A DNA stretch of 64,000 nt from Flavobacteriales bacterium. GTDB lineage: Bacteria > Bacteroidota > Bacteroidia > Flavobacteriales_D > Sanyastnellaceae. This document shows, piece after piece, positions 53,601 through 59,674 of this stretch (positions are counted from its first letter, which is position 1; each line of letters opens with the position of its first letter). The DNA lies in contig JAWKNK010000002.1 in the NCBI GenBank assembly GCA_041391745.1, forward strand, positions 203,576 to 267,575. Direction: 5' to 3'. The translations under genes and the position numbers were made by a program. Under the pieces are notes generated by a model. That model was not told the DNA's origin. It did not search any database and worked only from the letters and a program-made list of their open reading frames with translations.

Positions 53601-54581
53601 TTAATGTAAAGAATGCATTTTTACATCTAATATTATTCTCTCTGCAGGTGTATTCTGCCCCCCTTCCGTGCTCATCAATATACGATGAACTAATTTGGAA
53701 GCGGCTAATTTTCCAATTTCGAATCCACTATGATAAAAGTATTTCAGTGGAAAATTGACGATTTCTGGAATCATTCCATCACTGATGCCAACAACCAAAC
53801 AACCCTTTCCACTTAATGGTTGAGATGCCGCTGCCATCAGCTCATCACTCATCAAAAACATACCATCAGGATGATGTGAAGACAAGTAATCTGCCAATGC
53901 GATTTGTGCTTTATTAAAACTCTCAGCGTACACAAACGTAGCCTCTACATTGGCATTCACTAGCGCTAAACGAGCACCACGCTCTCTTCTTTTTGTAATC
54001 AGCAAATTCTCATTTCCTAGTATAATGGCGATATTTTTACATCCTTCATGAACTAAGTTTTTTACAGCTTGAAAAGCGACATCCTCATCATCAATTACTA
54101 CTTCATCAAATGGTGAGTTTTCGATACTCTTATCGAAAAAAACAACAGGTATTCCCGATGCAGGGAGGTTTATAAGGTGATCAATATTGCTCGTCTTGTT
54201 GCTTAGTGAAATTAGAATACCTTCCACGGAATGATCAAGACACATTTGAATATTTCGCTTTTCATGTTCAAGATCATCATTGCTTTGCAATACCAGTAAT
54301 TGATATCCATTTTCTCTCGCCACTTCTTCCACACCTTTAATCACTGAAGGAAAAAAGAACATCGAAATTTCAGGAATGATTAGAGCAATAATTTTACTAC
54401 TTCTCTTTCTAAGTCCTGCCGCGATATGATTTGGATGATAATTAAGTTCCTTAGCCTTGTCTTTGATCAACTGACACATATCCTTGCTAATATCAGGATG
54501 ATCTCTCAACCCTCTTGAAACAGTGCTTACAGAGATATCAAGTGCTTTCGCGATGTCTTTTATAGTAGCTCTTTTTTGCAT
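53601..54581 (-). CDS. LacI-family transcriptional regulator
   Basis: HTH ATIKDIAKALDISVSTVSRGLRD plus a periplasmic-binding-fold domain. Start set at MQKRAT (54581). Confidence 0.8.
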   Translation of the reverse strand: MQKRATIKDIAKALDISVSTVSRGLRDHPDISKDMCQLIKDKAKELNYHPNHIAAGLRKRSSKIIALIIPEISMFFFPSVIKGVEEVARENGYQLLVLQSNDDLEHEKRNIQMCLDHSVEGILISLSNKTSNIDHLINLPASGIPVVFFDKSIENSPFDEVVIDDEDVAFQAVKNLVHEGCKNIAIILGNENLLITKRRERGARLALVNANVEATFVYAESFNKAQIALADYLSSHHPDGMFLMSDELMAAASQPLSGKGCLVVGISDGMIPEIVNFPLKYFYHSGFEIGKLAASKLVHRILMSTEGGQNTPAERIILDVKMHSLH

Positions 54582-54640
54582 AAAAATTTCGGATTGCAAT
54601 AACGTTCATCAGTGAATGTTCGAAGATAGTATTTTTTAAC

Positions 54641-54664
54641 CGCAAACGATTGCGCAAACGATTG
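54641..54664. promoter_or_regulatory. Tandem CGCAAACGATTG repeats, a candidate LacI-family operator, upstream of the invertase gene
   Basis: cgCAAACGATTGcgCAAACGATTG. Each unit is a near-palindrome centred on CG (TGxAAxCGxTTxCA-like). A hairpin ACTGCCTG-N13-CAGGCAGT followed by TTGGTTTTT lies at 54776-54815 in the leader. Confidence 0.45.
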
Positions 54665-54867
54665 TTATTGTTAAATGCCTTTATTCATAAGTGTTTCGGT
54701 GCAAAAACTGAATTATTTTGTTTCTCCTTAACCAAAACAAACATATACGAGTGAAAAATCTCATTTAGAGAAAATCGACTGCCTGTAATCTCTTCCTGCA
54801 GGCAGTTGGTTTTTCACTCGGATAAAAGCTTTCACCTTCAACATAGCATTTATACTTCTATCATGTC

Positions 54868-56044
54868 ATGATTTTTTTAGAATCTGCATACGTTCTGCTA
54901 CATAACTGCATCACCGAAAACGGTTATGTTGCCTCGCCAATCAAGCACGATAACTATAATCGTGTGTGGGCGAGAGATAGCGCTATTGCTGGACTTGCGG
55001 CTCTTTGTGTGAATGATGAAAAAGGCATAAATGCACTCATCAGAAGTACCGTTCATTTGTCGCGCCACCAAGCTGACTAACGGACAAATTCCAAGTAATG
55101 TGAGTACTGATGGAAAGGTAAGTTTTGGCGGTACTGCCGGCAGAATTGACGCTACTACATGGTGGATTGTTGCGGCATGTTGGGCATTGAATCTGGATTA
55201 TTCTTTAGAAGATTATTTACTCCCAAAAATTAAAAAGGCCATGGCCGTTACCAAGGCCTGGGAGTACAATCAGAAAGGGTTTGTATACACACCGTTGGGT
55301 GGTAACTGGGCAGACGAGTATATCTCAAGTGGATACACATTATATGATCAAGCGTTACGCTACTGGGGAATGCGATCATTGGGCTCGGTGATTCAGGATA
55401 CTCAGATCCTCGAAGAAGCCAACGAACTTCGTCAAAATATTATTCACAACTTCAGCTTTAGTCATAAACCTGACGGCAGTGAATATCACCCTGTTGCGTA
55501 CAAAGAAGCATACAAAAAAATGGACTTCTGGCCGAGTACTTTTTCTCCCGCAGGATACGATAGCCGCTGGGATTTAGCGGCAAATGCTTTGGCACTACTC
55601 GTTGGCCTTAACAATAATGTGAATGAACTGGCGAACTATGTGAACCAGTTTTTTGAGATGAATAGTTCGCAAATGCTTCCCGTATTTTTTCCGATCATCC
55701 AACCAGAAGATGATGAATGGAAATTATTGAGTCATAATTATAGTTATTCCTTCAAAAATTACCCATATCAATTCCATAATGGAGGCAGCTGGCCCGTGTT
55801 CAATGGACTATTGGCCTTAGCGTTCACCCTCAATGGCAGAGATGATATTTCTAAAAACATCCTCGCATCTCATCATGATAATTTCACTGGAAATGATGCT
55901 TCTAAAATGTTTAGTGAGTACTGGGATGTACGCAGTGGTGAACCAAAAGGTGTGAGTCAACTTTGCTTCTCTGCAGCAGGTTATATCATGATGAATACCA
56001 CCCCAAAAGAAATTAGGGATGTAAAAAATAAAATTTTATGCTAG
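54868..56044 (+). pseudogene. GH100-family neutral/alkaline invertase homolog, split by one frameshift between about 54990 and 55060
   Basis: N-terminal fragment ...HDNYNRVWARDSAIAGLAAL... (GH100 NYDxVFxRDFxPSA motif). C-terminal frame ...GRIDATTWWIVAACWAL...GYTLYDQALRYWGMRSLG...YQFHNGGSWPVFNGLLALAF is collinear with cyanobacterial and plant invertases. Confidence 0.6.
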
Positions 56045-56679
56045 GAGATATTATTACCATAAAAGATGAGTTTTTTCAAACTTCAAAATCGATTGTACAA
56101 CAACTTTCGAAACGAAATTTTTGGAATAATAAATTCGTAATTGCCATTGCGGGAGAATCTGGAAGTGGAAAGTCAGTTACCGCAACTTGCTTGCAACAAG
56201 AACTTCTTTTTGAAAATAAAAAAGCATTGGTTCTTCACTTAGATGATTACTTCAAGCTTCCTCCCAAAACCAATCATGAAGCGCGTGAGAAGGATATTTC
56301 ACGAGTAGGCGTTCAAGAGATACGACTAGGTCTCGTGCAATTACACATCAATGAGTTTTTAGAAAATAAATCTGAAATATTAAAACCAATCGTTCACTAC
56401 AAAGAAAATAAAATACTCGCCGAACAAGTCGATATTGAGAAATATGATTGTATCATCGTAGAAGGTACATACTCCTTTTTTCTTGAAAACTTGAATTTTA
56501 AAATTTTTCTCGATAGTACATTTCAAGAATCGAAAAAAAGAAGAGACGCAAGAGGCAGAGAAAAGTCCAGCTTATTTATTGAATCTGTCCTAAAAATCGA
56601 ACAAGCTATTATTCGTTCTAGAAGAATTCAATCCAATTTGATTTTTGATCACAATTATAATCTTATCTTGACCCAGTAG
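56038..56679 (+). CDS. P-loop nucleoside/sugar kinase (uridine-kinase/PRK-like fold)
   Basis: Walker A AIAGESGSGKSVTA. Length is 213 aa. It overlaps the invertase stop. Confidence 0.55.
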   Translation: MLGDIITIKDEFFQTSKSIVQQLSKRNFWNNKFVIAIAGESGSGKSVTATCLQQELLFENKKALVLHLDDYFKLPPKTNHEAREKDISRVGVQEIRLGLVQLHINEFLENKSEILKPIVHYKENKILAEQVDIEKYDCIIVEGTYSFFLENLNFKIFLDSTFQESKKRRDARGREKSSLFIESVLKIEQAIIRSRRIQSNLIFDHNYNLILTQ

Positions 56680-56680
56680 A

Positions 56681-57961
56681 ATGGCGAAAGAAAGATTGAA
56701 TTTTTGGCAAATATGGAACATGAGCTTCGGGTTTCTCGGAGTACAATATGCCTTTGGCCTTCAGCAGGCCAACATGAGTCCCATATACCGATACCTCGGA
56801 GCCGATGAGTCGCAGATACCTTGGCTGTGGCTAGCCGGGCCGATTACGGGGTTAGTTGTACAGCCAATTATTGGCGCCATGAGTGATCGCACATGGCATA
56901 AAAGATGGGGTCGACGACGACCATATTTTATTGTTGGTGCATTACTTACGTCCATCGCATTAATTCTTATGCCTTTTTCATCCGAGCTGTGGATGGCAGC
57001 AGGGTTGCTCTGGCTTCTCGATGGTGCTGCAAATGTTACCATGGAACCTTTTCGCGCATTAATTGCAGATAAACTGCCCGATGATCAACGAACATTGGGG
57101 TATAGCGTTCAAAGTTTTTTTGTGGGCTTAGGGCAAACACTGGCCAATCTAATGCCCATCCTTCTTGCCTCCATGGGAGTGGCCACTGTTGTAGCTTCGG
57201 GAAGCATAGAAAAGATTCCAGACTTTGTAAAACTTAGTTTTATGTTCGGTGCAGTTGCAATAATTCTATCGATTGCTATTACCGTTATTACCACAAAAGA
57301 AAATCCACCAACCACAGAAATTAAAAAGCGCTCTTTCAAAGATTCTATCGCTGAAATTCTAGTTGCGTTTAAAGAAATGCCAAGTGAAATGAAACAACTT
57401 TGGTGGGTAAAATTCTTTACGTGGTTTGGTCTTCCATTGATGTGGCAATACTTGTCCCTATCCATCGCGCATCACTGTTTCAATGCAACCGATGCAGTTG
57501 ACATCGGTTTTACAGATGGAATCAAGTTTGGAAACTTGGGTCTCGCCATTTTTAATATCCTTTGTTTTGTCTTTGCGCTATTGCTACCTTTTCTAAGCAA
57601 GTTTCTTTCTTCAAAAAAAATACATGCTTTTGCATTAATGCTCGGGGGAATTGCATTTATCTCTATGAAATTTCAAACCGAAACATTGGGCTATATGATC
57701 GCGATGGGAGTGGTTGGAATTTCTTGGGCGAGCATAATGTCTATGCCTTACGTAATGCTTTCTAAATCAGTGCCCGCAGAAAGAATGGGTGTGTATATGG
57801 GCATATTCAATATGTTTATTGTGATACCACAAATTGTAAGCATGATTGTTGTTCCATTTATCTATACTAGCATTCTTCAAAACGATCCTGTCAATGCACT
57901 TGTACTTGCTGGAGTGAGTTTAATACTTGGAGCTATTGCGAGTTGGCGTCTTAAGTTTTAG
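56681..57961 (+). CDS. Sucrose/H+ symporter-like MFS transporter (GPH / plant SUT / SLC45 family)
   Basis: ...LGVQYAFGLQQANMSPIYRYLGADESQIPWLWLAGPITGLVVQPIIGAMSDRTWHKRWGRRRPYFIVGALL matches the signature of plant SUC transporters. 12 TM helices. Confidence 0.75.
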   Translation: MAKERLNFWQIWNMSFGFLGVQYAFGLQQANMSPIYRYLGADESQIPWLWLAGPITGLVVQPIIGAMSDRTWHKRWGRRRPYFIVGALLTSIALILMPFSSELWMAAGLLWLLDGAANVTMEPFRALIADKLPDDQRTLGYSVQSFFVGLGQTLANLMPILLASMGVATVVASGSIEKIPDFVKLSFMFGAVAIILSIAITVITTKENPPTTEIKKRSFKDSIAEILVAFKEMPSEMKQLWWVKFFTWFGLPLMWQYLSLSIAHHCFNATDAVDIGFTDGIKFGNLGLAIFNILCFVFALLLPFLSKFLSSKKIHAFALMLGGIAFISMKFQTETLGYMIAMGVVGISWASIMSMPYVMLSKSVPAERMGVYMGIFNMFIVIPQIVSMIVVPFIYTSILQNDPVNALVLAGVSLILGAIASWRLKF

Positions 57962-58387: not shown

Positions 58388-59674
58388 ATGAAAAACATCC
58401 TGAGATCATTATTTTTAATTCAAGTGTATTCGTTTGGGATAATGGCCACATTATCTTGTTCTAAAAACGAGCCTGAAATCGCTGACAACTCCTCCACCGC
58501 AACTTCGGAATTTGCATTTTACCAGTATCTTCAAGTTCCTGGAAGTGACCCAGACAATGGATTGGTTGCAAAACAAGTTGACAATACCACAGGTGATGAA
58601 ATTTTCTACTATGGGTCTTTCGATGAAGATGGACTTCCACAATCACCCAAGTCTATTGTTGTCAAAAAATTCTCTACCGATACTATGATGAATGTTTTCG
58701 TAGATGAATACATGCGACCAACGATGGTTTATTTTTCACACACAAATGGAGAAAAATACTCGACATTATGGACATATGAATGGAGTTCAGACAATACATT
58801 TTTATTCAGAAAATTCACTTACGATTGGGCACCGGAAACAGACAATCTCGACTATGAGTCATTTGTGACATACACCGATGGCCAGTATTATTTCGAAGAT
58901 AATTTTGTGAGATCATTGCATACTGAACTCGATGTTCCAGCAATGTTTGAAGAAAATATGAACTACAGAGGTGGAACTGCCTTTTGGACTAGTGTTGCTA
59001 GCAATGTAGTTACAGGCATCGGAGTAGTTGCAGCGGTTGGCGTAGGCATTTACGGTGCGGTTACCTTCGGAACTGTGTATGGTGTGGTTGGTGCCCTTAC
59101 CATCCTTACTGGTGTATTGATGGGAACGGCTAATGCTAGCGAACCACCTATCAACAACAACAATAATAACACGCCACCCAATCCGAACAATACTCCAAAT
59201 CCGAATCCGGTAAGTAATGTAAATAATCCTACCAACCTGACTACCACAACGGGAACCACAGGTACTACGGGCACAACAGGTACTACAGGATCTGACGGAA
59301 CTACCACAGGAACCACGGGAACAACGGGAACAACAGGAACGACGAGTACTTCTGGAACCGACGGAACAACAAGTACAACGAGTACTACTGGAACTGACGG
59401 AACTACAGGAACTACAAGCACAACAGGTACAACAGGTACAACGAGCACAACAGGTTCTGATGGAACAACTACTGGTACTACGGGTACTACGGGAACTACT
59501 GGCACTACAAGTACAACGAGCACCTCAGGAACAGATGGTACTACGGGCACCACTAGTACAAATAGTACAACAGTGACAACTAACGACACCATTATCGGAA
59601 TGACGATAGATCAACAAAAACTTAACAATCAATTGCGTCGTGAGTTGTTCAATAATCGCCGAGGTAAGAACTAA
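58388..59674 (+). CDS. Lipoprotein with an N-terminal globular domain, a glycine-zipper TM segment and a long Thr/Gly-rich repeat region
   Basis: Lipobox ATLSCSK. GIGVVAAVGVGIYGAVTFGTVYGVVGALTILTGVLMG. About 120 aa of (TTG)n/TST repeats. Confidence 0.55.
   Translation: MKNILRSLFLIQVYSFGIMATLSCSKNEPEIADNSSTATSEFAFYQYLQVPGSDPDNGLVAKQVDNTTGDEIFYYGSFDEDGLPQSPKSIVVKKFSTDTMMNVFVDEYMRPTMVYFSHTNGEKYSTLWTYEWSSDNTFLFRKFTYDWAPETDNLDYESFVTYTDGQYYFEDNFVRSLHTELDVPAMFEENMNYRGGTAFWTSVASNVVTGIGVVAAVGVGIYGAVTFGTVYGVVGALTILTGVLMGTANASEPPINNNNNNTPPNPNNTPNPNPVSNVNNPTNLTTTTGTTGTTGTTGTTGSDGTTTGTTGTTGTTGTTSTSGTDGTTSTTSTTGTDGTTGTTSTTGTTGTTSTTGSDGTTTGTTGTTGTTGTTSTTSTSGTDGTTGTTSTNSTTVTTNDTIIGMTIDQQKLNNQLRRELFNNRRGKN
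59221..59580 (+). repeat. Tandem 9-nt (ACN-ACN-GGN) repeats encoding the Thr/Gly-rich tract
   Basis: Imperfect repeats actacgggt/actacagga/acaacgagc. They lie inside the coding sequence with no spacer architecture. Confidence 0.6.

What the first reader, a model, noticed from the sequence alone, without database searches (positions are those of the whole stretch)
53601..57961. Plant/cyanobacterial-type sucrose module: LacI regulator, GH100 neutral invertase, P-loop kinase and SUT/SLC45-like sucrose:H+ symporter
The transporter carries the hallmark N-terminal signature of plant SUC/SUT and animal SLC45 sucrose symporters (...LAGPITGLVVQPIIGAMSDR...GRRRPYF...).

The hydrolase is a GH100 alkaline/neutral-invertase homolog. 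GH100 is a family centred in cyanobacteria and plants and is uncommon in Bacteroidota.

A small uridine-kinase-fold P-loop kinase is inserted between them, overlapping both neighbours. This is not the usual ROK or PfkB fructokinase.

The arrangement suggests a horizontally acquired, LacI-controlled sucrose uptake and cleavage cassette with an atypical sugar kinase. The invertase carries a frameshift in this assembly.
Basis: partly seen in the sequence, partly recalled or inferred. Interest (0 to 1): 0.55.

Follow-up and report, generated by a model that had tools for sequence, protein, structure and literature searches.

The report
Sucrose cassette with AgaSK-type sugar kinase
This is a repressor-controlled gene set for importing and breaking down sucrose. 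It is common in Bacteroidota. Its small kinase is related to the only known "sucrose kinase" rather than to uridine kinases, which points to a little-studied route that phosphorylates sucrose before cleaving it.

Summary
They are a LacI repressor (53601-54599, minus strand), a GH100-like hydrolase split by one extra base at 55075, a 213-aa P-loop kinase (56038-56679) and a SUT/SLC45-like MFS transporter (56681-57961).

- The cassette is not rare in Bacteroidota.
- It is not visibly foreign in composition.

LacI<-|(TonB receptor)-GH100-like-kinase-MFS recurs in Chryseobacterium, Epilithonimonas, Saprospiraceae and other Flavobacteriales, with a conserved tandem operator.

The main new result concerns the kinase. 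Its family matches the sucrose-kinase domain of AgaSK from gut Firmicutes (hhalign probability 99.6%). Across about ten phyla it sits next to, or is fused with:
- GH100-like hydrolases
- sucrose 6F-phosphate phosphorylases of the TtSPP type
- sucrose-phosphate-synthase-like GT4 enzymes
- a TreC-like phospho-alpha-glucosidase

My best reading (confidence 0.5) is that sucrose is imported, phosphorylated by the kinase, and then cleaved by the GH100-like enzyme. The main rival (0.3) is cleavage by an invertase followed by an unusual fructokinase. Either way this is a new variant of a known kind. The copy in this window is frameshifted.

The parts
53601..54599 (-). LacI-family transcriptional repressor, transcribed divergently from the operon. 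The ATG start is probably at 54581.
   Evidence: Pfam LacI HTH (43 bits) and Peripla_BP_1 (73.7 bits). The closest NCBIfam models are Cra/FruR and the fructose/sucrose repressor subfamily TIGR02417, both far below their cut-offs. A divergent LacI gene is present in the 14 Bacteroidota loci that carry the separate-gene cassette.
54642..54665 (.). Tandem 12-bp operator-like sites, GCAAACGATTGC and GCAAACGATTGT. These are the probable LacI binding sites at the divergent promoter.
   Evidence: The same tandem GCAAACGWTTGC motif lies in the LacI-cassette intergenic region of L001, L003, L005, L008, L009, L057, L004, L067 and L069. That LacI binds it is an inference.
54748..54820 (+). Conserved structured 5' leader. 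A long hairpin is followed by a T-run and enclosed by an outer helix, GAGTGAAAAA...TTTTTCACTC.
   Evidence: MFE -38.6 kcal/mol, z = -4.95 against shuffles. The sequence is nearly invariant in L001 and L069, while the flanking intergenic sequence and the start of the coding sequence carry many substitutions and indels. Three one-sided changes in L069 keep their base pairs. There is no Rfam match. Its function is unknown.
54868..56044 (+). GH100-like (alpha/alpha)6 glycoside hydrolase. One extra base at 55075 interrupts it, giving frame 1 for 54868-55074 and frame 2 for 55076-56044.
   Evidence: Pfam PF12899 scores 44 bits against a cut-off of 23.6, covering the C-terminal part only. A family profile matches InvB, InvA and AtCINV1 at E 3e-14 to 1e-11. 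The AF2 model of homologue P0002 has pLDDT 92.9, and its top 28 PDB fold hits are all GH100. The frameshift is shown.
56038..56679 (+). 213-aa P-loop kinase of the PRK/uridine-kinase fold, homologous to the AgaSK sucrose-kinase domain.
   Evidence: Pfam PRK scores 39 bits, while the udk equivalog scores 55 against a cut-off of 220. The AF2 model has pLDDT 90.8. hhalign against the Agathobacter rectalis AgaSK kinase domain gives probability 99.6%, E 1.6e-24. Signature residues are shared. The gene is adjacent to, or fused with, the GH100-like gene in every Bacteroidota locus examined.
56681..57961 (+). SUT/SLC45-like MFS proton symporter, the probable sucrose importer.
   Evidence: The only PDB hits are Arabidopsis SUC1 (E 2e-17) and human SLC45A4 (E 2.5e-12). 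The best NCBIfam model is the sucrose/proton symporter TIGR01301, at 103 bits, below its cut-off of 511. Homologues that are 58-60% identical lie next to a PfkB kinase in Spirosoma and Larkinella, with a GH32 enzyme as well in Larkinella.

Best explanation
This is a LacI-repressed operon for sucrose uptake and catabolism.

Proposed steps:
1. The SUT/SLC45-like MFS carries sucrose across the inner membrane. In most relatives a TonB-dependent receptor encoded at the head of the operon carries it across the outer membrane. That gene is absent from this lineage.
2. The P-loop kinase belongs to the same family as the sucrose-kinase domain of AgaSK. It phosphorylates the imported sucrose with ATP, most likely on the fructose 6-position.
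3. The divergent GH100-like alpha-glucosidase cleaves the sucrose phosphate into glucose and fructose 6-phosphate.
4. LacI binds the tandem GCAAACGATTGC operators between the divergent genes.

In this assembly the hydrolase is broken by a one-base insertion. The cassette is therefore either inactive in this organism or the insertion is an assembly error.

Shown by tool results: gene identities, fold and family relationships, conservation of the cassette, homology to AgaSK, and the family's neighbours.
Inferred: the substrate, the phosphorylation position, the order of the two enzymatic steps, and the operator function.
For: 1. Sucrose link of the transporter. The only PDB relatives are SUC1 and SLC45A4. 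Close homologues pair with a PfkB kinase, plus a GH32 invertase-family enzyme in Larkinella.

2. The hydrolase is closest to GH100 invertases in sequence and fold and keeps the catalytic Asp and Glu. The catalytic residues are taken from PMC6995568.

3. Kinase homology to AgaSK.
- tblastn hit the A. rectalis AgaSK orthologue at E 1e-10, against 1e-4 to 1e-5 for true udk genes.
- That protein scores 1401 bits against R. gnavus AgaSK, PDB 2YFN.
- hhalign of the family against its kinase domain gives 99.6%, E 1.6e-24 over 182 columns.
- D69, Y71, P76, N79, R83, G91, E94, E142, R169, R172, R174 and E188 are shared.
- RgSK phosphorylates sucrose with a Km of 1 mM (PMC7688924).

4. Partner enzymes act on phosphorylated disaccharides.
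- In six Chloroflexota loci the gene just downstream is a GH13_18 enzyme. The one tested against the PDB (L042) scores 698 bits to TtSPP against 315 to sucrose phosphorylase, and the other five are 57-76% identical to it. The six fructose-6-phosphate-binding residues of TtSPP are kept in five of the loci, and the sixth has Phe for Tyr201 (residues from PMC6720575). This mirrors the AgaSK-SPP pairing in Firmicutes.
- SPS-like GT4 enzymes lie adjacent or are fused.
- One fusion joins the kinase to a TreC-like phospho-alpha-glucosidase.

5. GH100-like and kinase are fused in L006, L007 and L012 and in several cluster representatives. The kinase was adjacent in 5 of 5 look-ups that started from the hydrolase.

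6. About 29 kinase positions are at least 90% conserved across all contexts. This suggests a single substrate class.

7. The GH100-like family replaces Arg430 of InvA/InvB with an invariant Leu. This fits an altered active site.
Against: - No enzyme of this subfamily has been assayed.
- Identity to the AgaSK kinase domain is only 26-32%. Parts of the presumed substrate region differ, for example EGTY against EWTH and the loss of P117.
- The AgaSK product is reported as sucrose-6(glucose)-phosphate, not the 6F-phosphate that the partner enzymes would need (PMC7688924).
- All characterised GH100 enzymes act on free sucrose.
- In Spirosoma and Larkinella the homologous transporter pairs with a PfkB kinase, classically a fructokinase. 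This fits a simple fructokinase replacement.
- TtSPP is promiscuous and can also phosphorolyse free sucrose (PMC6720575).
- Kinase-SPS fusions and the paralogue fused to TPS-TPP also fit hexose kinases that feed synthases.
Confidence: 0.5

Rival explanations
1. Cleave first, then phosphorylate. The GH100-like enzyme is an ordinary neutral invertase that splits imported sucrose into glucose and fructose. The P-loop kinase is a non-orthologous fructokinase that makes fructose 6-phosphate, replacing the usual PfkB or ROK enzyme.
For: - All characterised GH100 enzymes hydrolyse free sucrose, and the catalytic residues are conserved here.
- Transporter homologues 58-60% identical to the window's are followed by a PfkB kinase, with a GH32 enzyme nearby in Larkinella. 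This looks like a module swap of GH32+PfkB for GH100-like+P-loop kinase.
- Fructose or fructose 6-phosphate is also a common metabolite of invertase, sucrose phosphorylase and SPS contexts.
- Kinase-SPS-like fusions would channel fructose to fructose 6-phosphate and on to sucrose phosphate.
- The 6-OH of fructofuranose resembles the ribose 5'-OH that uridine kinases attack. This last point is inference.
Against: - The only characterised relative is a sucrose kinase (PMC7688924).
- The GH13_18 partners keep the phosphate-binding residues of a sucrose 6F-phosphate phosphorylase, whose products include no free fructose.
- Three of those loci already carry a ROK kinase whose best match is the fructokinase ScrK model, at 262 bits, below the cut-off of 400.
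- The TreC-like fusion partner belongs to a phospho-disaccharide hydrolase family.
Confidence: 0.3
2. The cassette handles a different alpha-glucoside, such as trehalose, glucosylglycerate, glucosylglycerol or a sucrose-containing trisaccharide. The kinase then phosphorylates that compound or its aglycone, for example glycerate, as plant GLYK-type P-loop kinases do.
For: - Trehalase genes flank the GH100-like-kinase pair in Gemmatimonadota loci.
- A paralogous kinase is fused to GT20-TPP, and another family member is fused to a TreC-like enzyme.
- The hydrolase gives a weak NCBIfam hit to glucosylglycerate hydrolase (18 bits), and GH63 enzymes are the next-best fold matches.
- JGI names the transporter homologues 'maltose/maltooligosaccharide transporter'.
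Against: - The GH63 fold matches are much weaker than GH100 (E 1e-8 against 1e-14, TM 0.62 against 0.75).
- The GH13_18 partners are of the TtSPP type, not the glucosylglycerate or glucosylglycerol phosphorylase type.
- The GT4 partners score best against SPS models.
- No GLYK-like structure appears among the top fold hits for the kinase.
- The transporter's closest contexts are sucrose- or fructoside-type, not starch-type.
Confidence: 0.12
3. The kinase is a true uridine/cytidine kinase, or a zeta-toxin-like protein as NCBI and JGI name it, and lies in the operon by chance.
For: - Source names are 'uridine kinase' and 'zeta toxin family protein'.
- Pfam Zeta_toxin scores 24.2 bits against a cut-off of 22.3, and the udk models are the best NCBIfam hits.
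Against: - The udk equivalog scores 55 bits against a cut-off of 220.
- The uridine-kinase NYDHPDAFD motif is replaced by a family-specific VG..E motif.
- The kinase is obligately adjacent to, or fused with, sugar enzymes in about ten phyla.
- No antitoxin partner is present.
Confidence: 0.03

Closest known systems
AgaSK (alpha-galactosidase/sucrose kinase) with RgSPP, in the Ruminococcus gnavus / Agathobacter rectalis aga1 locus
   Same: - The kinase is homologous to the roughly 212-aa C-terminal sucrose-kinase domain (hhalign 99.6%).
- Both have a uridine-kinase-like fold.
- In both, the kinase is coupled or fused to a glycoside hydrolase.
- Elsewhere in the family the kinase sits directly upstream of a sucrose 6F-phosphate phosphorylase, behind a regulator and a sugar importer, as in aga1.
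   Different: - Here the kinase is a stand-alone gene.
- It is paired with a GH100-like hydrolase, not a GH36 alpha-galactosidase.
- There is no SPP in this cassette.
- Uptake is by an MFS transporter, not an ABC transporter.
- The regulator is LacI, not AraC.
- Identity is only about 30%.
- The AgaSK papers describe the kinase as confined to a few gut Firmicutes (PMC7688924). This family spans about ten phyla.
Xanthomonas sux locus (SuxR LacI repressor, SuxA TonB-dependent receptor, SuxC MFS symporter, SuxB GH13_4 sucrose hydrolase)
   Same: [quoted passage not shown]
   Different: - The hydrolase is GH100-like, not GH13_4.
- A kinase is added to the operon.
- The receptor gene is missing from the window's lineage.
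- Homology of the transporter to SuxC was not tested.
GH100 alkaline/neutral invertases (Anabaena InvA and InvB, plant CINV)
   Same: - The (alpha/alpha)6 fold is shared, and GH100 enzymes are the best structural and sequence matches.
- Equivalents of the catalytic Asp188 and Glu414 are invariant.
   Different: - Identity is about 20%.
- The proteins are roughly 390 aa, against 460-550 aa.
- Pfam matches only part of the model.
- The Arg430 equivalent is Leu.
- These genes are always paired with the kinase.
- The substrate has not been tested.
Plant SUC/SUT and animal SLC45 sucrose/H+ symporters
   Same: - These are the only PDB relatives.
- The TM2-3 signature is shared.
- NCBI names a 59%-identical homologue 'SLC45 family MFS transporter'.
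   Different: - The protein is bacterial and shorter, at 426 aa.
- It scores 103 bits against a cut-off of 511 on the curated GPH_sucrose model.
- The substrate is inferred from gene context only.
TtSPP-type sucrose 6F-phosphate phosphorylase operons (GH13_18)
   Same: - Family members of this kinase lie directly upstream of TtSPP-type genes that keep the fructose-6-phosphate-binding residues, apart from Tyr201 to Phe in one locus.
- This offers a source for the enzyme's substrate.
   Different: - This link is absent from the window.
- In Thermoanaerobacterium itself the neighbouring kinase is described as a putative phosphofructokinase (PMC12703740).

Membership tests
GH100 (alkaline/neutral invertase) | Match to Pfam PF12899 above the gathering score | tested here: met
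   44 bits against a cut-off of 23.6, but only model positions 281-411 of 435 are matched. The family profile matches InvB at E 2.7e-14 with both N- and C-terminal stretches.
GH100 (alkaline/neutral invertase) | (alpha/alpha)6-barrel fold closest to solved GH100 structures | tested here: met
   The AF2 model of P0002 (77% identical to the repaired window protein) has pLDDT 92.9. Its top 28 Foldseek PDB hits are InvA, InvB or AtCINV, with TM about 0.75 and E about 1e-14. GH63 follows at E about 1e-8.
GH100 (alkaline/neutral invertase) | Catalytic Asp188 and Glu414 (InvA numbering; PMC6995568) | tested here: met
   The invariant D149 (WADEY) aligns with InvB Asp189. The invariant E350 (SEYW) aligns with InvB Glu415.
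GH100 (alkaline/neutral invertase) | Arg430, associated with catalysis in InvA and InvB (PMC6995568) | tested here: not met
   In the HMM alignment Arg430 aligns with the invariant Leu365 of the family, next to a 3-residue insertion in InvB. The alignment in this loop is less certain.
GH100 (alkaline/neutral invertase) | Hydrolysis of sucrose to glucose and fructose | not testable with these tools
   This needs an enzyme assay.
AgaSK-type sucrose kinase | Sequence homology to the characterised SK domain | tested here: met
   hhalign of A3 against the A. rectalis AgaSK C-terminal domain gives probability 99.6%, E 1.6e-24 and 29% identity over 182 columns. BLAST E-values to all locus kinases run from 1e-13 to 2e-23 among those printed. 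Orthology of that protein to R. gnavus AgaSK rests on 1401 bits to 2YFN.
AgaSK-type sucrose kinase | Walker A loop and the conserved Asp/Arg residues shared with the SK domain | tested here: met
   GESGSGKS against GGSGSGKT. D69, Y71, N79, R83, E94, E142, R169, R172, R174 and E188 are shared. E40, P75, P117, G143 and Y145 differ.
AgaSK-type sucrose kinase | Fusion to a GH36 alpha-galactosidase | tested here: not met
   The window gene stands alone at 213 aa. Relatives are fused to GH100-like, GT4 or GH13 domains instead.
AgaSK-type sucrose kinase | Genomic coupling to a sucrose 6F-phosphate phosphorylase | tested here: not met
   There is no GH13_18 gene in the window cassette. The feature is met for other family members in six Chloroflexota loci.
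AgaSK-type sucrose kinase | ATP-dependent phosphorylation of sucrose | not testable with these tools
   This needs an enzyme assay.
Uridine kinase (udk) | Score above the NCBIfam equivalog cut-off | tested here: not met
   TIGR00235 scores 55.2 bits against a cut-off of 220.3. NF004018 scores 54.3 against 180.
Zeta toxin | Pfam PF06414 as the best-fitting family, plus an antitoxin partner | tested here: not met
   PF06414 scores 24.2 bits, just above its cut-off of 22.3, but PRK scores higher at 39 bits. The neighbours are sugar genes, not an antitoxin.
SUT/SLC45 (GPH_sucrose) symporters | Score above the curated TIGR01301 cut-off | tested here: not met
   103.2 bits against a cut-off of 511. 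It is nevertheless the top model.
SUT/SLC45 (GPH_sucrose) symporters | Closest characterised relatives are SUC/SUT and SLC45 proteins | tested here: met
   The only PDB hits at E<1 are AtSUC1 (2.1e-17, nearly full length) and SLC45A4 (2.5e-12).
LacI/GalR repressors | N-terminal LacI HTH plus a periplasmic-binding-protein-like sugar domain | tested here: met
   PF00356 covers residues 12-57 and PF00532 covers residues 71-275.
sux-type sucrose utilisation locus | LacI repressor, TonB-dependent receptor, MFS symporter and GH13_4 sucrose hydrolase | tested here: not met
   The repressor and MFS are present. The receptor is present only in relatives. The hydrolase is GH100-like, not GH13_4. The resemblance is one of logic, not membership.

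The most novel reading that the evidence does not exclude
The kinase family is a widespread stand-alone sucrose 6F-kinase, with 228 clusters at 50% identity at E<=1e-30 across about ten phyla. Its GH100-like partner is then a previously unrecognised sucrose-6F-phosphate hydrolase. Together they would define a non-PTS 'phosphorylate, then cleave' route for sucrose. The same kinase would supply the long-sought physiological substrate of sucrose 6F-phosphate phosphorylases.
Probability: 0.4. Interest if true: 0.7.

Novelty: new variant of a known kind. Interest (0 to 1): 0.55.

Why it matters
- Source of sucrose 6F-phosphate. These phosphorylases have been characterised biochemically, but reviews say the source of their substrate is unknown (PMC7178133). 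The only known sucrose kinase is described as confined to a few gut Firmicutes (PMC7688924). A large family of homologous kinases sits beside or is fused to enzymes that make or break sucrose phosphate, across many phyla. That turns the question into a simple set of enzyme assays.
- Annotation. Hundreds of genes now labelled 'uridine kinase' or 'zeta toxin' would be re-annotated.
- GH100 activity. A divergent GH100 branch may have a new activity.
- Ecology. The cassette describes how many soil and water Bacteroidota probably take up sucrose, a major plant and algal exudate.

Tried and rejected
1. Glycerate kinase paired with a glucosylglycerate hydrolase. I set this aside for three reasons. 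GH63 and glucosylglycerate-hydrolase matches are far weaker than GH100. The GH13_18 partners are of the TtSPP type, not glucosylglycerate phosphorylases. No GLYK-like structure appears among the top kinase fold hits.

2. FrcK of Sinorhizobium as a precedent. The relationship is at fold level only (3c8u), and FrcK's own substrate is still unknown (PMC10433430).

3. Recent horizontal transfer. No block-wide compositional deviation was found, and synteny with relatives is conserved.

4. Programmed frameshift at 55075. There is no slippery or homopolymer context, and both close relatives lack the extra base. I treat it as a mutation or an assembly error.

5. An Rfam family for the structured leader. 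None was found, at an E-value limit of 10.

6. Searches that could not be completed.
- The afdb50 fold library was unavailable.
- The two key papers, Bruel 2011 and Xie 2016, are not held. The sugar-binding residues of InvA and the substrate panel tested on AgaSK could therefore not be checked.
- The PDB entry for AgaSK lacks the kinase domain.

7. The 700-aa family next to the kinase in spirochaetes. No Pfam or NCBIfam match was found, only a weak GH13-like PDB hit. It remains unassigned.

Full report
**Observation**

The region holds five ORFs that make four genes.
- LacI-family regulator: 53601-54599, minus strand. It has a LacI HTH and Peripla_BP_1 domain.
- Hydrolase: split between 54868-55080 and 55031-56044.
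- P-loop kinase: 213 aa, 56038-56679.
- MFS transporter: 426 aa, 56681-57961.

The kinase start overlaps the hydrolase stop by 7 nt. The transporter starts one base after the kinase stop, so the three genes form one translationally coupled operon.

Alignment with two relatives that carry intact 391-aa hydrolase genes, L001 and L069, shows one extra base in the window at 55075. Deleting it restores a 391-aa protein that is 77% identical to P0002. There is no homopolymer or slippery context, so this is either a real inactivating mutation or an assembly error. The window comes from a 307-kb contig of a Flavobacteriales MAG.

**The hydrolase**

Pfam places it in Glyco_hydro_100 above threshold, though only over the C-terminal third.

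A profile of 35 full-length homologues matches Anabaena InvB and InvA and Arabidopsis CINV1 at E 3e-14 to 1e-11. The next hit, a GDE-type amylo-1,6-glucosidase, follows at 8e-5.

An AlphaFold model of P0002 has pLDDT 92.9. Its 28 best PDB fold matches are all GH100 enzymes, at TM about 0.75 and 20% identity. GH63 enzymes come next at TM about 0.62.

The catalytic residues of InvA and InvB are Asp188/189 and Glu414/415 (PMC6995568). They align with invariant D149 and E350 of the family. Arg430, also tied to catalysis, aligns with an invariant Leu.

The enzyme is therefore a divergent GH100 branch of about 390 aa. It is not a typical cyanobacterial or plant invertase.

**The transporter**

Its only solved relatives are Arabidopsis SUC1 (E 2e-17, nearly full length) and human SLC45A4. 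The top NCBIfam model is the sucrose/proton symporter subfamily, far below its cut-off.

The family is very large in Bacteroidota, with at least 8000 hits. JGI labels many of them 'maltose/maltooligosaccharide transporter', so homology alone does not fix the substrate.

Gene context helps. Homologues 58-60% identical to the window protein in Spirosoma aureum and Larkinella rosea are each followed by a PfkB kinase, and Larkinella also has a GH32 enzyme nearby. That is a classical sucrose set.

**The cassette is common, not exotic**

- Five of five look-ups that started from hydrolase homologues returned the same arrangement. Four of them had a TonB-dependent receptor as the first gene.
- The genome scan added Chryseobacterium taeanense, C. 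hagamense, C. balustinum, Epilithonimonas pallida and Saprospiraceae loci.
- The window, L001 and L069 lack the receptor.
- A tandem operator-like motif, GCAAACGWTTGC repeated twice (window 54642-54665), is conserved in the LacI-operon intergenic region of window, L001, L003, L005, L008, L009, L057 and L069, with variant forms in L004, L067 and L068.
- Hydrolase and transporter GC (0.416 and 0.418) equal the window mean of 0.413 +/- 0.023. Only the short kinase gene is AT-richer, at 0.329.

The claims of rarity in Bacteroidota and of recent horizontal acquisition are not supported.

**The kinase**

It belongs to the PRK/uridine-kinase fold. Pfam PRK scores 39 bits, and the model has pLDDT 90.8 with fold hits to PanK, UCK2, PRK and an FrcK-like protein. 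It fails the uridine-kinase equivalog, scoring 55 bits against a cut-off of 220.

A profile search of 1.84 billion cluster representatives found 228 clusters at E<=1e-30.

A scan of species-representative genomes found the family in the following groups:
- Bacteroidota
- Gemmatimonadota
- Balneolaceae
- Gammaproteobacteria (Wenzhouxiangella)
- Alphaproteobacteria
- Spirochaetota
- Chloroflexota
- Acidimicrobiia
- Nitrospiraceae
- Thermotogae
- Bdellovibrionales

Its neighbours are consistently enzymes of non-reducing alpha-glucoside metabolism:
- GH100-like hydrolases, fused to the kinase in L006, L007, L012 and several cluster representatives.
- GT4 enzymes whose best models are sucrose-phosphate synthase, either adjacent or fused. 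These often occur with GlgC and a DUF4922 protein.
- GH13_18 phosphorylases.
- A fused TreC-like phospho-alpha-glucosidase. The NF008183 model scores 594 bits against a cut-off of 535.
- Trehalases.
- An unassigned GH13-like family of about 700 aa.

About 29 residues are at least 90% conserved across all of these contexts.

**Link to a characterised enzyme**

A tblastn of the window kinase against plasmid records hit a gene annotated 'alpha-galactosidase' in Agathobacter rectalis at E 1e-10. True udk genes scored 1e-4 to 1e-5 in the same search.

That 946-aa protein lies behind an AraC regulator and an ABC importer and ahead of a GH13_18 gene. Its first 719 residues score 1401 bits to the R. 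gnavus AgaSK structure 2YFN. It is therefore the AgaSK orthologue described in PMC6521584 and PMC7688924.

Its C-terminal domain aligns with the kinase family at hhalign probability 99.6%, E 1.6e-24 and 29% identity over 182 columns. It shares D69, Y71, P76, N79, R83, G91, E94, E142, R169, R172, R174 and E188.

The isolated R. gnavus domain phosphorylates sucrose with a Km of 1 mM and a kcat of 2.4 per second (PMC7688924).

**Which step comes first?**

Two readings fit the cassette: (a) kinase then hydrolase, with sucrose phosphate as the intermediate, or (b) invertase then fructokinase.

Evidence for (a):
- The only assayed relative is a sucrose kinase.
- In six Chloroflexota loci the gene directly downstream of the kinase is a GH13_18 enzyme. 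The one tested against the PDB (L042) scores 698 bits to TtSPP, 433 to glucosylglycerol phosphorylase and 315 to Bifidobacterium sucrose phosphorylase. The other five are 57-76% identical to it.
- Those enzymes keep Arg134, Arg195, His344, Gln345 and Arg399, which bind the fructose 6-phosphate moiety in TtSPP. Tyr201 is kept in five loci and is Phe in one (PMC6720575). The products of that enzyme include no free fructose.
- This repeats, with a different SPP clade, the kinase-then-SPP order seen in Firmicutes.
- The SPS-like and TreC-like partners also belong to families that handle phosphorylated disaccharides.
- Three of the loci already hold a ROK kinase resembling the fructokinase ScrK, though below that model's cut-off.

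Evidence for (b):
- All known GH100 enzymes use free sucrose.
- The transporter's homologues pair with PfkB kinases elsewhere.
- TtSPP is promiscuous.
- Kinase-synthase fusions also suit a hexose kinase.
- The AgaSK product is reported as the glucose-6 ester rather than the fructose-6 ester (PMC7688924), a mismatch that the literature itself leaves open.

I put (a) at about 0.5, (b) at about 0.3, another alpha-glucoside at about 0.12, and a true nucleoside kinase or toxin at about 0.03.

**Comparison with known systems**

In logic the cassette resembles the Xanthomonas sux locus, which has a LacI repressor, a TonB-dependent receptor, an MFS symporter and a cytoplasmic sucrose hydrolase (PMC12798719, PMC1790865). 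The differences are a GH100-like hydrolase in place of GH13_4 and an added kinase.

In its kinase it resembles the aga1 locus of gut Firmicutes. The differences are that the kinase is free-standing, is paired with another glycoside hydrolase family, and belongs to a far wider family than the AgaSK papers describe.

I found no paper in the held library that describes a GH100-plus-kinase cassette.

**Verdict**

The finding is a new variant of a known kind. The copy in this window is probably defective. The family it belongs to gives a direct experimental handle on where sucrose 6F-phosphate comes from in bacteria.

Noticed in passing
window 54748-54820 (+), with L001:7886-7958 and L069:~933-1014: A structured RNA-like element of about 73 nt lies in the operon leader: a long hairpin plus T-run inside an outer helix. 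It is almost invariant among three relatives, whereas the flanking intergenic sequence and the start of the coding sequence are much more variable. z = -4.95, three substitutions keep their base pairs, and there is no Rfam match. Its 5' part recurs upstream of the TonB receptor gene in L067. It may be a remnant leader plus inter-cistronic hairpin left after loss of the receptor gene.
   Followed up: partly
window 54600-54867 compared with L067:3013-5911 and L068:2938-5962: The window, L001 and L069 lack the TonB-dependent receptor gene that heads the operon in most other Bacteroidota loci. The receptor appears to have been lost in this lineage.
   Followed up: partly
L031:9642-11729, L018:4914-7049, L020:9617-11614, L025:9642-11870, L033:3432-5489 and others: A conserved family of about 700 aa lies directly downstream of the kinase in Spirochaetota, Acidimicrobiia and Chloroflexota. 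It has no Pfam or NCBIfam match. Its motifs look GH13-like (DVIPHTDRFS, FDFMRGDMSH, YFAETF), and it gives a weak PDB hit to Thermotoga maltodextrin glycosyltransferase. It may be an undescribed sucrose- or sucrose-phosphate-active enzyme.
   Followed up: partly
L054:4832-7666; also L039:7273-7911 and L042:5625-6329: A paralogous kinase branch, about 27% identical to the window kinase, is fused to a GT20 trehalose-phosphate-synthase-like domain and a trehalose phosphatase in a Kiritimatiellae MAG. In Chloroflexota the same branch sits beside GT20 genes.
   Followed up: no
L013, L014, L015, L019, L026: A recurrent cluster comprises a divergently transcribed DUF4922 gene (L013-L015; a different upstream gene in L019 and L026), the kinase, an SPS-like GT4 enzyme and GlgC on the opposite strand (not seen in the short L015 contig). 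It occurs in Wenzhouxiangella and another Gammaproteobacteria MAG, Longimicrobiales and an Alphaproteobacteria MAG. No sucrose-phosphate phosphatase was seen, so the direction of the pathway (synthesis or breakdown) is unclear.
   Followed up: no
L064:8001-10419 and L065:4716-10296: In Spirosoma aureum and Larkinella rosea, close homologues of the window transporter are followed by a PfkB kinase, with a GH32 enzyme as well in Larkinella. This looks like an alternative sucrose module built on the same transporter.
   Followed up: partly
literature (PMC7688924, PMC6521584): The published AgaSK product is sucrose-6(glucose)-phosphate. The phosphorylase encoded just downstream is selective for sucrose-6(fructose)-phosphate. 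This inconsistency is unresolved in the papers, and the wider family association found here makes it worth re-testing.
   Followed up: no
window 58388-59674 (+): A 428-aa ORF has a long Thr/Gly/Ser-rich tandem repeat (TTGTTGTTGS/DG...) after an N-terminal signal-like segment. It may be a surface or mucin-like protein.
   Followed up: no
window 56038-56679: The kinase gene has GC 0.329 and GC3 0.28, about 3.6 sd below the window's gene mean, while its two operon neighbours are average.
   Followed up: no
L063 (Gemmatirosa kalamazoonensis plasmid 2, 871946-886485): A cultured Gemmatimonadota strain carries a family member that is 39% identical on its 1-Mb replicon. The PLSDB record has no annotation. 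The strain could serve as an experimental host.
   Followed up: no
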